Below, piece after piece: positions 2,257 through 50,065 of a stretch of DNA of 64,000 nt. The stretch comes from Eledone cirrhosa. Taxonomy: Eukaryota. Below the pieces are notes generated by a model that worked only from the letters and a program-made list of their open reading frames with translations, had not been told where the DNA came from and made no database searches. The translations under genes were made by a program, and so were the position numbers. The stretch lies in NCBI GenBank assembly GCA_964016885.1, contig OZ024753.1:45570001-45634000 (forward strand), given 5' to 3'. Every line of letters starts with the position of its first letter. The first letter of the stretch is position 1.

Positions 2257-2260
<4 letters not shown>
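2077..2260 (+). mobile_element. Penelope-like pLTR 3' fragment (family H1) ending at (TA)n
   Basis: Minimal HHR motif followed by a tail (atcaagcgttaacctaatatat..tgtaccg) similar to the copies at 20.9 kb and 43.7 kb. Confidence 0.65.
2133..2168 (+). ncRNA. Minimal type I hammerhead ribozyme (core G8>A variant)
   Basis: TCTT-CTGATAA-A-GGAC(TAGC)GTCC-GAAA-C-GTT^AAGA. Stem I is TCTT/AAGA, stem II is GGAC/GTCC, and stem III is the loopless palindrome ACGT. Confidence 0.7.
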
Positions 2261-2293
<33 letters not shown>

Positions 2294-2379
2294 CACCGTA
2301 TTTTTTATTTTTGACTAAAGACATTTTTGCCTGATAATGGGGTTTAGAACCCTCAGATAAATGAAAAAAAGATGAGTAT

Positions 2380-2450
2380 TGACGTACATGGGAGTCGAAC
2401 CCACATCTTTGGTTATCCAGACCACTGTGCTACCATTACACCAACACATC
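2380..2450 (-). tRNA. tRNA-like cloverleaf (anticodon loop CTGGATA), inverted copy; probably a pseudo-tRNA or SINE head
   Basis: The reverse complement folds into acceptor, D, anticodon and T arms, with A-box TGGTGTAATGG and B-box GGTTCGACTCC. Confidence 0.55.
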
Positions 2451-2470
2451 ACTCAATGTGATATGTTGGT

Positions 2471-2541
2471 GATGTGTTGGTGTAATGGTAGCACAGTGGT
2501 CTGGATAACCAAAGGTGTGGGTTCGACTCCTATGTACATCA
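2471..2541 (+). tRNA. tRNA-like cloverleaf (anticodon loop CTGGATA); probably a pseudo-tRNA or SINE head
   Basis: Acceptor GATGTGT/GTACATC, D-stem GTGT/GCAC, anticodon stem TGGT/ACCA, T-arm GTGGG-TTCGACT-CCTAT. A TTTTT run follows about 10 nt downstream (Pol III terminator-like). Confidence 0.55.
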
Positions 2542-2769
2542 ATACTCATCTTTTTCCATTTATCTGAGGGTTCTAAACCCCATTATCAGGCTAAAATTTC
2601 TTTAGTCAAAAATACGGTGAAAGCTATTCTATTTTCTAATTTCAAACCTGCTCACTGTTTCAAAACATACTTACTTCTCATATATATATATATGTTTATA
2701 TATCGCCGTATTTCCTTTCTACTTGTGGGATATATAAATTTATATATATATATATACGATGAGAGGAGC

Positions 2770-32975: not shown

Positions 32976-33730
32976 AGCAGAGAGAGAGGGAGAGAATAAG
33001 ATTGAGGAAGGGAGTGAAAGAAAGTTTGGAAAGAGACAACTCGATAATGAAGTAAGCCGGAAGCTTACCTTAGTTCCAGAGAAGCACTAAAGATATAGAA
33101 TAATGGCAGTAATGTAACGGCAGCACGGAATCGATTGAACCAAACCAGCATGGTATTGATCCTTATTCTATATATTCTGATGACATGAAAGGTCAAGAAG
33201 CCCTCAGCCTATTTTGAACTCAGTACATTCTTCATCTCTATTATTTCAAATATTCAAATTTAAATTATTATTATATATTGATATGTAAGCTAACTTTAAT
33301 GTTATATAACTCCAGTACAATATGTAATTTAAATGCTTTACTGTGAAACATGAAGTAATGCAAAGAAACGTGTTACCTATTAGTTAAACCATAACATATA
33401 AACGGAGTGTATATACACAACATCATACACACAAGCACACACATGTATGTATATATGTGTTCTAAACAACGAACGGAATATATATATATATATATGTGTG
33501 TATGTGTGTGTATTTATATATGAAAAATGTATACAGAAAAAACAAAGCAAACGGCACAATAGAATGAAGATATATATCAGTTTAACCCTTGATATATTAG
33601 AAAAAGAGTCTTGGGTTTTCGGGCACTAGTCCTTCGTCAGATGATAAAATGAGAAATAAAAGATGAAATAGAAAGATAGAGATTGCAAAGAGAAAAAACA
33701 TGTCTGTATAGATTCAGCCACACTTTGGTA

Positions 33731-35099: not shown

Positions 35100-36748
35100 T
35101 CATCATCATCATCATCATCACCGTTTTACGTCCGTTCTTCCACGCTAGCATGGGTTAGACGGGTTGTCCTGTTGTGGGCAGTGTCTGGTCGGCTGACCAT
35201 GCCTTGCTCATACAGGAACTGATCTGGCTTGATTTCTACAGCTGGATGCCCTTCCTAACACCAACCTCATTTACAGTGAGTGCTGGGTGCTTTTTCGTGG
35301 CGCCTACACGTCCACTTTACAGTGTGGGCTGGGTGCTTTTTTGCCGTGGCACCTCCACGACCACCTTGCGGTGGGGGGGGGGGGGGGCATATTGTTTATA
35401 TGCTTCAGCATGTACCCATGGGAGGTCGGGTACCCTGTATTACTGCGTGACGCCAGAAGTCACGGTCGTGTGTCATTGACTTTGAGAGGTGTAGTTGGGT
35501 AAGGTCGGCTTTTATCACCTCATCCCAAGTCATCTTGGGTCTCCCCACTCCGCGGTTTCCATCAACTTCTAGTGCTCTGCACCTTTTTATGCAGCTGTCA
35601 TCCTTCATACGCATCACATGTCCATACCAGCGTAACCGCCTCTCCTGCACGCAGCATTTGATTCCTCTTATGCTCAGTCTCTCTCTCAATTCATTTATGC
35701 TTTGTCGTTCACGTATATTACTGTTACACATCCATCGGAGCATGCAGGCTTCGTTTCTCTCTAATCTACGTAAGTCTTCCACCTTCAGCGCCCAGGTCTC
35801 ACTACCATGCAACATCGCTGTTCGGATACACGCATCATACAGTCTGCCTTTCATTCTGAGGGAGAAGCCTTTTGCAGCTAGCAGTGGTAGTAGTTCCCTA
35901 AACTTCTTCCATCCCGTTCTTACCCTAGTTATTGTACTTTCTGAGCACCCACCTCCGTTGCTAATTCGGTCACCTAGGTAGCAGAAGCTGTCTACTGTTT
36001 CTACAGGGCCCTCCCAGAGATTGGTGGTACTTGTTTCCTGTGGCTGTTTGCTTGCTGTTTCAGCACAGCTGCTGCATGTGAATCCTACATTCTTAATTAA
36101 GCTTCCTGAGATCCCGCTACATCTCTTGTGTACCCATTGTTTGCATTTGGGGCAAAGAATGGAGTTCCTACCTACACCTTTCCTACATACTGAGCAAGGC
36201 CATTTCCCTGAGGGGATCTGGGTTCTGTTTTCTCGTCTACTTATAAGGACCTTAGTCTTTGTCATGTTGACTTTGAGGCCCTTTCTCTCTAGTCCCTGCT
36301 TCCAGGTTTGGAATTTATTCTCTAGTTCTACCATAGATTCAGCTATGAGTGCGAGGTCATCAGCATACAGGAGTTCCCATGGGCATCCGGTCTTAAACTC
36401 CTCCGTTATTGCCTGCAGGACTATGATGAACAGGAGAGGGCTAAGAACAGAGCCCTGGTGGACCCCAACCTGTACGCTAAATTCCTCGCTATACTCATTG
36501 CCAATCCTAACTTTGCTGACTGCTCCCCTATACATGGCTTGTACCGCTTTCACAAGCCATTCATCTACTCCTAGTTTTCTAAGAGCCCACCAGATTACTG
36601 CACGTGGAACTCTGTCAAAGGCTTTCTCAAGGTCGACAAATGCCAAGTAGAGTGGCTTACTTTTAGCTAGGTACTTTTCCTGTAATTGCCTCACAAGGAA
36701 GAGCGCATCAGTGGTGCCTTTCCCTGGAACAAACCCAAATTGCATACT
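35099..36748 (-). mobile_element. 5'-truncated RTE-clade LINE with 3' UTR and (ATG)n tail
   Basis: RT ORF, about 280 bp of 3' UTR, and (CAT)n at 35099-35120. Embedded in a (TA)nCTG satellite. Confidence 0.95.
35405..36745 (-). CDS. RTE LINE reverse transcriptase, partial and uninterrupted, with internal PHD-like finger
   Basis: Motifs QFGF..GTTDA, FVDLEKAFD, GVHQGSVLSPLLF, LLYADD, FCYLG, RLRWYGHV and GRPKMTW. The N-terminal part of the track ORF is satellite translation. Confidence 0.92.
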   Translation of the reverse strand: MQFGFVPGKGTTDALFLVRQLQEKYLAKSKPLYLAFVDLEKAFDRVPRAVIWWALRKLGVDEWLVKAVQAMYRGAVSKVRIGNEYSEEFSVQVGVHQGSVLSPLLFIIVLQAITEEFKTGCPWELLYADDLALIAESMVELENKFQTWKQGLERKGLKVNMTKTKVLISRRENRTQIPSGKWPCSVCRKGVGRNSILCPKCKQWVHKRCSGISGSLIKNVGFTCSSCAETASKQPQETSTTNLWEGPVETVDSFCYLGDRISNGGGCSESTITRVRTGWKKFRELLPLLAAKGFSLRMKGRLYDACIRTAMLHGSETWALKVEDLRRLERNEACMLRWMCNSNIRERQSINELRERLSIRGIKCCVQERRLRWYGHVMRMKDDSCIKRCRALEVDGNRGVGRPKMTWDEVIKADLTQLHLSKSMTHDRDFWRHAVIQGTRPPMGTC

Positions 36749-40213: not shown

Positions 40214-41309
40214 ACACATACACATATAGTTATACATGCACAGACACATACACACATACACACATATATATATATGTATATACATGCGAACACATGCATA
40301 TGTAAGTGCCAATAGATGTATGCGTGTGCCAGTTTGTCTGTGCGTGTGTCAGTGTGTGTTTGCGTGAATGTGTCATAGGGAGAGATATAAGTACATAGGC
40401 AGAGCAGATAGAGAGATATCTATGTGAAGACCAATGATTAGAATTGCTGCCAGCCAGATCACTAGTACGATAGGGAGAGATAGAGAGGGGGGATAGCGGG
40501 GAATAGAGTGTGAGGGAACTGCAGTCAGATAAGGAAACATAGCAAAGCGAATAAGATTTTTTTAAAATAATTTTAGTTCGTGAAAGCTATATATATATAT
40601 ATAGAGTGAGAGAGAGAGAGAGAAATACAGAGAGAGATGTGCGATAATATTATATCGGAATATGTGCAGGGTGTGTAATCGAGACAGCACAAATAACTAC
40701 GGTATATAAATATAGAAAATAAATACTGACGACGAGTGCTTAATCCGACTTACACCAGTATCTATTGCGATCTAAACTAATCGTTGATTAATTACCACGA
40801 AATAACGGCAATAATGTCTATATATAGTAGTTACAAACAAAAACCAAAAACAATAACGAAGACTGCAGTACCGACAGTGTTTTTGTTAGGTTTACGCTTG
40901 AGAATACAATCCTCTGCTGAATAAGAACTCTATGAATCGTGTCTGTTAAGTCTGTGAGGTATTCACAGTTAGGATGTGACCCAATGTGTGGTGCTCCTCT
41001 AACTCACTGCAATATAAATATGACCCAATGTTTCAAACGAAGACATGAGATATACCATATAATATTGAAGACAAAAATATACATCAAAAGGTTTTTCTGG
41101 AATGTTAAATTTTAATAGAAAGAAACAGAAATATTAATATAGTTTCTTTTGCATTAAATATACTGAAAGGCGGAGGCTGAATGGGTGTAGTTTGAGAGTT
41201 TGTGAAGCATAAATACGGTCATCTCCCAAGTGTGGATGTATATGCGTGTTTGTATGCGAAACTGTTTGTATGTACGGTGCATATATATATATATATATAT
41301 AATTATAGA

Positions 41310-41364
41310 TGAGATTCTACAGGACTAGAACTGTTTCATTCTTTAGAAATCATCAGGAATCTCA
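41310..41364 (-). ncRNA. Complete type I hammerhead ribozyme
   Basis: Reverse complement TGAGATTC-CTGATGA-TTTC(TAAA)GAAT-GAA-ACAG(TTCTAGTC)CTGT-A^GAATCTCA: 8-bp stem I, intact core, 4-bp stem III and a GUA cleavage triplet. Stem II opens with a T.T mismatch. Confidence 0.85.
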
Positions 41365-41418
41365 GGGATTGCTGATGATTTCTAAAGAATGAAACAGTTC
41401 TAGTCCTGTAGAATCTCA
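41365..41418 (+). ncRNA. Type I hammerhead ribozyme (second, divergent copy)
   Basis: GGGATTG-CTGATGA-TTTC(TAAA)GAAT-GAA-ACAG(TTCTAGTC)CTGT-A^GAATCTC, with a G.G mismatch at the first pair of stem I. Confidence 0.8.
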
Positions 41419-41506
41419 TCTATATTAAAACTTTTATACTCTGCTATGTATTGAGTACCTTACTTACTGTGGTTACCTCTGATTCAACCCGGAATAACGT
41501 ACCTAC

Positions 41507-41537
<31 letters not shown>

Positions 41538-41809: not shown

Positions 41810-43623
41810 ACATATACGAGGCGTAGGGGGTAGTTTTATGTATGTTGGTGTGCATGTGTATACATATATACTAAACTTTATAGAACCTGCAGCAAAAATA
41901 CAAATGCATTATCTTTGAATCGATTAGATAGATGTGCCAAGTGTTTTCTTCGATAATTTCCAAATACATGAAGAACTCCGATAGAAAAATATATTTTAAT
42001 CTGGAATTAGATATTGTCTATGAGATAGGCAAACAGATGCTGGAGTGATTGATGAACAAACAAAACAACAAATAAAATATATATTCAAATCAATGGGAGA
42101 TAAGCATTATATATAATCGATATTTTCCGATGATGTTTCAGGATTGTAATATGTAAATCATAGATTACAACAAAAACAAAGAAATCAAATGATTAGTGTG
42201 TATATATTAAAGAAGAACTAAAGATAAGACATTGATAATTCAGCTTTCTGGCTTAAGTTTCGAATTGGAACGAAGATAAAAACCATGTTTTTGAAGAATT
42301 CTAAGGTGGAATTTTGTATTGTTATATTATTATCGCGATTGTCGTTCCTCTTACATCTGAGGTCAAAGAGTTTTATCGGATGTACACGCTCAGACAAACT
42401 ATTATCCAATAATCGTTCTTTATGAATATCTAGGTTCTAATTAGAGAATTCCTCTGATGTCTCCACGCCATTACGTCTAATTTTATAGGCAGCTCTACAA
42501 ATGGTAATTTTGTGATCTAAAATAATCTATAATAGTATTCGATGTTTCTTAAAGCTACGTAGGGTGTTGCTATATCTACAATCACACGACAAAACCTTAA
42601 AACTGGAAGGATACTTTATAAAATATAATTTTAGAATCCTCATTTCTGAGATTCGAAATTGTTTTGATCATTGGAATAATCAAACAATTGTATTGAGTAA
42701 CATAGCAATAACGATATGAAATATGTTCTTAAGACAGTTTTAGAAATTCCTGATCCCCATTTCAATATCATATCTAACACAGGAGGTAATGTTAGAAAAC
42801 AGCGAGTGGAGTTTGAAATTTGAAATAGAAGGCCTCACCGTAACTATTTGAGAGCAAGATATATGCATACATCCAGACATACATGCATATATAATACTTG
42901 CTTACATACATGTATATATAATGCATGCATACAGTCGTACATAGAGACATATGTACATACATGCACACACACATACATGCATATGTACATATATGCATAC
43001 TTACAAAGTTAAATAAAGATTTAGTGGTGAAAGGTTGAAATTTAACTGGAGTTCATCTCTATAAATAGTTTTAAATAGGGAAATGAATACAATACAATCA
43101 ATTATACCTTACTCCCCATGTTATCATCAATATCTCACTTCAAATATAACAACAGTAAAAACATAACAAATATAGATACTAACTAACCTATGCTATCATC
43201 GATATGAAAATATAATTAACTTATAAAAGCTAACACGTATCTTAAGATTTTCATACGTCTTCTGCCTAATTAAGCTTGGGAAACTTTTAACATTTCATGT
43301 TTGATGTTGTTACTAATTAATTATGTCTTACTAATGTAATAAAACGTGACTTATGAAAAGTCATTTATGTTGGCAACCAGTTGTATGTTTATATGTCTGT
43401 GTGTATGAATGTATAGAAGTATGTGTGTATGAATGTATAGAAGTATGTGTGTACATATGTATGAATGGATGTATGTATGTGTGTATGTATGTGTGAATAT
43501 ATGTATATAAGTATTATATGTGTATGTATATACGTATGTATTTATGCGATCTATGTTTGTACTCATCTAAGTATTTATGTAAATACATCTATCTATTAGT
43601 GTGAATGTGAGGCATATGCACAC

Positions 43624-43686
<63 letters not shown>

Positions 43687-43714
43687 TTCTACAGGACTAG
43701 AGCTGTTCCATCCC

Positions 43715-43844
43715 TTGTTTCCCATTCTGATGAAAGACTAGTATCTGAAACGTAAAATCTCTTTTCTTATTATATCAAGAACTAAAGTAATTTATTTTTC
43801 CTTTTACTGTATTTTTGCATTGTTGTTTCCGTTTGCTCTATGCG

Positions 43845-43846
<2 letters not shown>
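43715..43846 (+). mobile_element. Family H1 pLTR fragment with minimal HHR (core intact, 43727-43754)
   Basis: CTGATGA-A-AGA(CTAGTA)TCT-GAAA-C-GTA; ends at (TA)n. Preceded by an inverted family H4 fragment. Confidence 0.7.
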
Positions 43847-43940
<94 letters not shown>

Positions 43941-49836: not shown

Positions 49837-49917
49837 TCAATCTGACAAGATTTTCCCACCCGGAGGGAGGTATTGGAGTGTGTCGATTGGTATAATAAAT
49901 TGCGCAGAACTTGGTAC

Positions 49918-49973
<56 letters not shown>

Positions 49974-50065
49974 ACCAAGTTTTGCGCAATTTATTATACC
50001 AATCGACATATATATATATATATACATGTTTCGAGGGCGATTTATTTATTATGCCAATCGACACA
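49837..50065. mobile_element. Tail-to-tail inverted element ends around a (TA)n(TG)n tract
   Basis: TGTCGATTGGTATAATAAATTGCGCA.AACTTGGTACA at about 49881-49918 (+) and 49971-50008 (-). A third related motif sits at 50028-50065 (-). Confidence 0.7.

What the first reader, a model, noticed from the sequence alone, without database searches (positions are those of the whole stretch)
2291..2679. Hairpin element carrying two divergent tRNA-like Pol III units: a candidate Penelope-mobilised SINE
Seen: a 330-bp palindrome between (TA)n tracts. Each arm starts at the centre with a full 71-nt cloverleaf (A-box, B-box, all four stems, loop CTGGATA) followed by a T-run. The arm differences inside the stems keep pairing (G-C versus G-T, A-T versus G-T). 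A GGA anticodon with a short variable arm and a Gln-like D region is not a normal tRNA-Ser. The + copy contains GAAAGCTA (2619-2626), which resembles a minimal-HHR 3' half, and the left arm stops exactly at that GAAA. Inference: a tRNA-headed element using the same (TA)n-targeted, inversion-prone pathway as the HHR elements rather than LINE-type insertion. I saw no poly-A tail or TSD.
Basis: partly seen in the sequence, partly recalled or inferred. Interest (0 to 1): 0.7.

Follow-up and report, generated by a model that had tools for sequence, protein, structure and literature searches.

The report
tRNA-bearing, ribozyme-free Penelope-type repeat
The mirror-image pair of tRNA look-alikes is one back-to-back insertion of an abundant 260-base non-coding repeat that lands in TA microsatellites and is likely copied by Penelope-like jumping genes, although it lacks the self-cutting RNA such hitch-hikers usually carry, and its tRNA part is likely a promoter rather than a working tRNA.

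Summary
The palindrome and both cloverleaves are real. They are one insertion of a ~260-bp non-coding unit with thousands of copies (841 hits for a tRNA 24-mer, 3,804 for a 3' motif) and at least four subfamilies. In a 78-insertion sample, 57 are back-to-back arms, 49 of those 57 have one long and one short fixed 3' end, and 118 of 135 3' ends lie in (TA)n. Units also run head-to-tail. GIY-YIG Penelope-like elements (PLEs) in this genome leave the same footprint. So PLE mobilisation is well supported, but it is not a SINE in form: the tRNA sits inside a tandem unit. Two divergent tRNAs occur at only 12 of 59 inversion junctions. No hammerhead core is present in any strand order, and GAAA is not conserved. 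The anticodon loop varies between subfamilies, and copies show no selection on the stems. 5' ends pile up at the tRNA T-arm, and this replicated in a second sample. No helper element or RNA was found. The scan noted this class before in other genomes. Closest in print: Sm-alpha and non-LTR retrozymes.

The parts
2260..2291 (.). Left (TA)n target tract
   Evidence: sequence
2292..2455 (-). Inverted arm, from just upstream of the tRNA to the 'short' 3' end (unit ~257 to ~154); 4 substitutions and 8 inserted bases versus subfamily A majority
2364..2370 (-). T-run after the left tRNA-like unit (T7; T5 in the family)
   Evidence: sequence
2380..2450 (-). tRNA-like module, left copy
   Evidence: 49.7 bits
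2456..2467 (.). Inversion junction filler, not matched to the family unit
2468..2681 (+). Forward arm, tRNA start to the 'long' 3' end; 4 substitutions versus subfamily A majority
2471..2541 (+). tRNA-like module, right copy: A box 2478-2488, loop CTGGATA 2501-2507, B box 2520-2530
   Evidence: (49.5 bits)
2526..2539 (+). Family-wide 5'-truncation hot spot (unit 57-70): T-loop A58 to the 3' strand of T-stem and acceptor; also the longest purine-pyrimidine alternating run of the unit
2551..2555 (+). T5 run (Pol III terminator-like), present in all four subfamily majorities; in full units predicted to pair with the leader upstream of the tRNA
2614..2658 (+). Predicted 3' stem (2614-2620 with 2652-2658) bracketing the short end; includes GAAAGCTA 2619-2626, which is not a conserved hammerhead block
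2640..2681 (+). One-sided tail between the two preferred 3' ends
2680..2694 (.). Right (TA)n target tract
   Evidence: sequence
42771..42843 (-). 3' fragment of the older subfamily D of the same family
   Evidence: nhmmer E 4e-5

Best explanation
This is one insertion of a ~260-bp non-coding tandem unit that is likely copied in trans by the reverse transcriptase and GIY-YIG endonuclease of a Penelope-like element, with its tRNA-derived module likely serving as an internal Pol III promoter rather than as a decoding tRNA. Shown: copy number, (TA)n targets, two fixed 3' ends about 40-65 nt apart, variable 5' ends, partial head-to-tail tandems, back-to-back arms and no hammerhead core. Inferred: a multimeric or circular sense-strand RNA is the template; both nicked target strands prime reverse transcription at two internal sites; the two cDNAs are joined at their 5'-variable ends, often at matching positions. 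In this copy both arms stopped at the tRNA's 5' end, which gives two divergent cloverleaves. The promoter role is the weakest step (about 0.55).
For: Copy number: 841 exact hits of a tRNA 24-mer and 3,804 of a degenerate 3' 22-mer; reversed controls gave 0.

tRNA-anchored sample, 78 insertions: 57 back-to-back, 49 of 57 long+short ends, 118 of 135 3' ends at (TA)n versus 2,876 of 16,200 random windows.

3'-anchored samples: 27 of 42 and 31 of 45 inverted; 26 of 27 and 30 of 31 long+short; 63 of 69 and 67 of 76 ends at (TA)n (four loci are shared with the first sample).

Tandem templates: 54 of 140 arms exceed one period. Arms and tandem units of one insertion share private variants (38 pairwise observations, not independent).

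Positive control: RT + GIY-YIG elements of this genome show a short inverted end and a tailed end, both into (TA)n, at L155, L162 and L169.

Papers: PMC8557442 describes tandem/inverted insertions, a one-sided 30-40 bp tail and (TA)n bias (passages, section 15). PMC11167929 shows two adjacent internal RT start sites giving the tail, with both strands cut and extended (passages).

tRNA module: A and B boxes are kept across subfamilies 66-88% alike while the loop changes, GGA, CGA or GGC-like.
Against: No helper was identified: there is no match between the family profile and 70 GIY-YIG loci apart from an independent insertion in L233, and none of 40 loci with the 3' motif runs into an ORF. These loci come from 150 scored of 10,595 candidates, and Naiads were not sampled (one search gave one unrelated hit). 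A T5 run follows the tRNA in every subfamily and would stop Pol III before the 3' region, so read-through or Pol II transcription has to be assumed. The excess of 5' ends at the tRNA start is modest (hazard 0.31 versus 0.15-0.23). Transcription was not shown.
Confidence: 0.78

Rival explanations
1. Same PLE-mobilised element, but the tRNA module works at RNA level: it folds and is handled as a tRNA (RNase P or Z cutting, ligation, base modification) and so replaces the hammerhead of retrozymes in cutting multimers to unit length or circles.
For: No hammerhead. The cloverleaf sits on a ~16-bp leader-trailer helix predicted in all four subfamilies (z -2.1 for one natural unit). D versus A keep pairing at 11:24 and 29:41. 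5' ends pile up just 3' of A58: hazard 16 of 24 versus 17 of 164 in discovery and 13 of 30 versus 14 of 201 in a replicate with the window fixed beforehand (note).
Against: The hot spot (modal unit 62-64) is 4-6 nt short of an m1A58 stop. It coincides with the unit's longest purine-pyrimidine alternating, self-complementary run, which mimics the (TA)n target. Another palindrome also collects ends (8 of 36). Subfamily B has a broken top of the acceptor stem yet is the youngest. The 11:24 change is CpG-type, 29:41 in D is eroded by CpG decay, and the acceptor 5' strands of A and D align poorly.
Confidence: 0.25
2. A conventional tRNA-headed SINE mobilised by a LINE; the palindrome is a chance head-to-head pair or a twin-priming product.
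For: A and B boxes in a cloverleaf; some excess of 5' ends at the tRNA start; one 13-bp duplication at L061; an RTE-like LINE lies in the window.
Against: No poly-A or simple-repeat tail; 3' ends are internal to a tandem unit; most arms pass upstream through the head. The inverted arm's outer end is fixed and does not track the forward arm's start, unlike twin priming (twin-priming geometry recalled).
Confidence: 0.05
3. A MITE or non-autonomous Helitron whose long inverted arms are its termini.
For: Palindromic shape and TA flanks. A separate tRNA-like sequence does sit in a TA-flanked, DNA-transposon-like repeat in this genome.
Against: Arm lengths, centres and unit numbers differ at each locus (85-1,212 bp); the ends are asymmetric; 21 of 78 insertions are single-orientation and 5'-truncated.
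Confidence: 0.04
4. Functional tRNA-Ser(GGA) genes amplified by a mobile element.
For: ARAGORN calls Ser(gga); the loops GGA, CGA and TGA seen in A-type copies are all Ser anticodons.
Against: Rfam scores are about 50 bits versus 70-75 for real tRNA-Thr genes here. U37, a short variable arm and a G.A mismatch; G33 in the CGA variant; a GGC-like loop in D; copies break stems freely; most insertions lack a full tRNA.
Confidence: 0.03

Closest known systems
Sm-alpha / Sj-alpha of Schistosoma (PMC2770079 passages; PMC8490949 passages)
   Same: Short (~335 bp), high-copy, SINE-like repeat related to a tRNA (tRNA-Gln-TTG in PMC2770079), found as satellite and dispersed copies.
   Different: Sm-alpha carries an active type I hammerhead; this family has no CUGANGA. 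PLE-type two-ended insertion was tested here and is not described in the passages I read for Sm-alpha.
Animal non-LTR retrozymes (PMC7229834 passages; bioRxiv 10.64898/2026.07.22.740005 part 1 of 5 and passages)
   Same: Non-coding tandem units of ~170-400 nt, monomers to arrays, proposed to be mobilised by PLEs.
   Different: They are defined by a type I hammerhead in each unit, which is absent here. The preprint's text has no mention of tRNA; here each unit holds a tRNA-derived module.
Penelope-like element insertions; non-autonomous Chlamys such as MRC1; Naiads (PMC8557442 passages, section 15, supplement rows; PMC11167929 passages)
   Same: Partial tandems, inverted 5'-truncated copy, one-sided tail, (TA)n bias; Naiads also lack canonical hammerheads.
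   Different: No ORF, no 3' sequence shared with any autonomous element I sampled, and a tRNA module not described there.
Helenus / Cassandra 'TRIMp3' (PMC10886601 abstract, passages, section 19)
   Same: Non-autonomous retroelements outside the SINE-LINE system with a small-RNA-derived Pol III promoter inside their repeats; they inflate tRNA gene counts.
   Different: Those are LTR elements with PBS, PPT and 4-5 bp TSDs. This has none of these recognisable and follows the PLE pattern; the paper's text does not mention Penelope.

Membership tests
Non-autonomous Penelope-like element | Partial head-to-tail tandems with 5' truncation | tested here: met
   54 of 140 arms longer than one period; variable 5' ends
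Non-autonomous Penelope-like element | Inverted 5'-truncated copy at the 5' side | tested here: met
   57 of 78, 27 of 42 and 31 of 45 insertions
Non-autonomous Penelope-like element | One-sided tail from two fixed 3' ends | tested here: met
   49 of 57, 26 of 27 and 30 of 31 inverted insertions have long+short ends
Non-autonomous Penelope-like element | Microsatellite target bias | tested here: met
   118 of 135 3' ends at (TA)n versus 18% background
Non-autonomous Penelope-like element | 3' sequence shared with an autonomous PLE | tested here: inconclusive
   None in 70 GIY-YIG loci or 40 3'-motif loci; only a small part of 10,595 candidates was seen
Non-autonomous Penelope-like element | Mobilisation in trans by PLE RT-EN | not testable with these tools
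   Needs a biochemical or cell assay
Non-LTR retrozyme / Sm-alpha | Hammerhead core (CUGANGA + GAAA) in each unit, any strand order | tested here: not met
   0 CUGANGA in 8 majority strands; 6 of 69 A arms and 0 of 67 B/C arms have one; no Rfam ribozyme on the units. The stem scan itself recovered only 2 of 4 controls
Non-LTR retrozyme / Sm-alpha | Circular RNA intermediates | not testable with these tools
   No RNA run could be examined; shared variants fit a circle or a homogeneous tandem source
SINE (tRNA type) | tRNA-derived A and B boxes | tested here: met
SINE (tRNA type) | tRNA head at the 5' end of a monomer | tested here: not met
   74 of 108 arms run more than 18 nt upstream of the tRNA start
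SINE (tRNA type) | A-rich or LINE-derived 3' tail and TSD | tested here: not met
   3' ends join (TA)n directly; TSDs are unreadable in (TA)n, one 13-bp case; no systematic comparison with LINE ends
Functional tRNA-Ser | Conserved anticodon, long variable arm, stems under selection | tested here: not met
MITE / TRIMp3 | Fixed termini at both ends with short uniform TSD | tested here: not met

The most novel reading that the evidence does not exclude
A ribozyme-free class of Penelope parasites in which a tRNA mimic does the hammerhead's job: host tRNA enzymes modify and cut the multimeric RNA, and the pile-up of 5' ends just 3' of A58 is a genomic fossil of reverse transcriptase stalling at a modified, folded T-arm.
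Probability: 0.22. Interest if true: 0.78.

Novelty: new variant of a known kind. Interest (0 to 1): 0.5.

Why it matters
It extends small-RNA-promoter parasites (SINEs on LINEs, Helenus and Cassandra on LTR elements) to Penelope-like elements without a hammerhead, which suggests the ribozyme is dispensable for PLE hitch-hiking. Thousands of short copies with two fixed 3' ends and a sharp 5' hot spot give a compact 260-nt substrate for the one PLE enzyme working in vitro. Such repeats also produce false tRNA-Ser gene calls. The window's double-tRNA hairpin itself is an ordinary junction outcome.

Tried and rejected
Hammerhead: the first stem scan missed all three controls; the relaxed scan found 2 of 4. 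The negative therefore rests on the missing CUGANGA block, which all six strand orders need (PMC10085705 passages).

Helper search: GIY-YIG family search with 70 loci examined; a Naiad-motif pattern gave one hit with no Naiad-like frame; 40 loci with the 3' motif. The PLE in L260 is separated from the element by microsatellites and another repeat. The published Naiad_Obim 3' end seen in a supplement passage showed no resemblance by eye; the supplement was searched, not read whole.

Source tRNA: 16 Rfam hits gave tRNA-Thr genes (36-41 of 73 identities to A) and another repeat; no source was identified, and 'Gln-like' remains untested. Phage tRNA hits were generic, none covering 80% of the query.

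Circle versus tandem template: unresolved. The D-subfamily pattern gave only 15 hits because of divergence and is no copy number (565 candidates).

Rows dropped before counts: array L056 and compound locus L031 (80 loci to 78). The discovery 3' sample skipped four loci already held.

Not in print as far as searches show; Repbase and Dfam could not be searched, and bioRxiv supplements were closed.

Full report
Observation. The flagged stretch holds two inverted arms between (TA)n tracts, each starting near the centre with a tRNA-like cloverleaf. The arms differ by 6 substitutions and 3 gaps, and each differs from the family majority by 4 substitutions. The right arm runs about 55 nt beyond the palindrome to 2681.

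Family. A search of the genome gave 960 candidates, 40 scored, with matches of 92-100%. A tRNA 24-mer has 841 exact hits and a degenerate 3' 22-mer has 3,804; reversed controls gave none. Tandem copies reveal the whole unit, including a linker upstream of the tRNA. Three young subfamilies have periods of 260, 290 and about 268 bp, are 86-88% alike and lie 2-4% from their majorities; an older subfamily D is 66-68% alike. A D fragment lies at window 42771-42843.

Insertion anatomy. I took the 80 loci covering the first 100 listed tRNA-pattern hits and set aside one array and one compound locus. Of 78 insertions, 57 are back-to-back arms and 21 have one orientation. In 49 of the 57, one arm ends at a short site and the other about 40-65 nt further on. 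118 of 135 3' ends meet (TA)n, against 2,876 of 16,200 random windows. Two samples picked by the 3' motif agree: 27 of 42 and 31 of 45 inverted, 26 of 27 and 30 of 31 long+short. 54 of 140 arms exceed one period, and 74 of 108 run upstream past the tRNA start, so the template is longer than a tRNA-started monomer. Both arms start near the tRNA 5' end at 12 of 59 junctions; the window's copy has that form.

Positive control. The genome holds many GIY-YIG + RT elements. At L155, L162 and L169 an inverted short end and a tailed long end both run into (TA)n, as does a hammerhead-bearing palindrome at window 41300-41510. This is the pattern described in PMC8557442 (passages and section 15) and explained by two internal RT start sites in PMC11167929 (passages).

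Hammerhead. No CUGANGA occurs on either strand of any subfamily majority, and GAAAGCTA reads GATAGCT in C and GAAGCT in D. All six strand orders need that block (PMC10085705 passages). Rfam found no ribozyme on the units. My stem scan was weak, recovering 2 of 4 controls, so the negative rests on the missing block. The GAAA lies in a predicted 3' stem that brackets the short end and keeps pairing across subfamilies.

The tRNA module. It scores about 50 bits, against 70-75 for real tRNA-Thr genes here. The loop is CTGGATA in A, B and C, CGCGATA in a common A variant (15 copies in 9 of 80 loci) and CCGGCAA-like in D. Copies break stem pairs as often as chance predicts. A and B boxes persist across subfamilies, and a leader-trailer helix that buries the T5 run is predicted in all four. 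Compensatory change between A and D is modest: one clear pair, one CpG-type pair and two in a poorly aligned acceptor stem. No source tRNA was identified.

A 5' hot spot. In insertions picked by the 3' motif, 5' ends of tail-bearing arms pile up at unit 57-70: 16 of 24 at risk versus 17 of 164 in downstream bins. With the interval fixed beforehand, a second sample gave 13 of 30 versus 14 of 201. Non-inverted insertions show it too (5 of 15 and 3 of 12 start at 62-64). This lies just 3' of T-loop A58, so an RT block at a folded or modified T-arm is possible (the m1A58 stop is recalled knowledge). But the same site is the unit's longest purine-pyrimidine alternating, self-complementary run, and another palindrome also gathers ends. 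Microhomology is at least as likely. Either way, 21 of 42 and 21 of 45 insertions have an arm cut there, and only 6 of 42 and 18 of 45 reach the tRNA's 5' part.

Against and open. No autonomous partner shares the 3' end among 70 GIY-YIG loci or 40 3'-motif loci, a small sample of 10,595 candidates. A T5 run follows the tRNA and would have to be read through. Shared variants within insertions fit one source, but do not separate a circle from a tandem master. No RNA data could be examined.

Comparison and novelty. It works like a non-LTR retrozyme or a non-autonomous PLE, but fails retrozyme membership (no hammerhead) and SINE membership (internal tRNA, no tail). Sm-alpha is the nearest printed case, tRNA-related but with a hammerhead. 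Helenus is the LTR analogue. Nine paper searches did not show a ribozyme-free, tRNA-bearing PLE parasite. My reading was fixed, before the look-ups. The scan's notes describe the same class in at least three other genomes (16 findings); these are unchecked leads, not support, and none matched this sequence. Verdict: new variant of a known kind, interest 0.5.

Noticed in passing
L212, L214-L222 (e.g. L216:1190-2916): A second high-copy tRNA-like sequence (53-72 bits) with a CTGGCAA/CCGGCAA loop, like subfamily D's loop, sits inside a TA-flanked repeat with a fixed palindromic left end and inverted subterminal repeats, resembling a non-autonomous DNA transposon.
   Followed up: partly
L056:1-4001: A satellite array of the 260-bp unit, at least 15 periods, 85-89% to the young unit, filling the whole fetched stretch.
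   Followed up: no
L031:2250-8001: A palindromic insertion of this family repeated three times at about 2.4-2.8 kb spacing, as part of a larger tandem repeat.
   Followed up: no
window 33500-33730, 41300-41510, 43685-43848: Short PLE-type fragments with CUGANGA...GAAA cores between (TA)n tracts; the 41.3-kb one is a palindrome with a one-sided tail.
   Followed up: partly
window 35405-36650 (-): RTE-like LINE reverse-transcriptase frame next to a long TA-rich tract (family name recalled).
   Followed up: no
window 49882-50007: Short inverted repeat around a (TA)n/(TG)n centre.
   Followed up: no
L211, L213: Clusters of tRNA-Thr genes (7 and 5 tRNA genes in 3 kb) on C1.
   Followed up: no
L150:4809-7622(-), L152:1775-5062(+): Long open RT + GIY-YIG frames (938 and 1,096 codons stop to stop), indicating young PLE families; L260 holds a 97% identical copy of the first.
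   Followed up: partly
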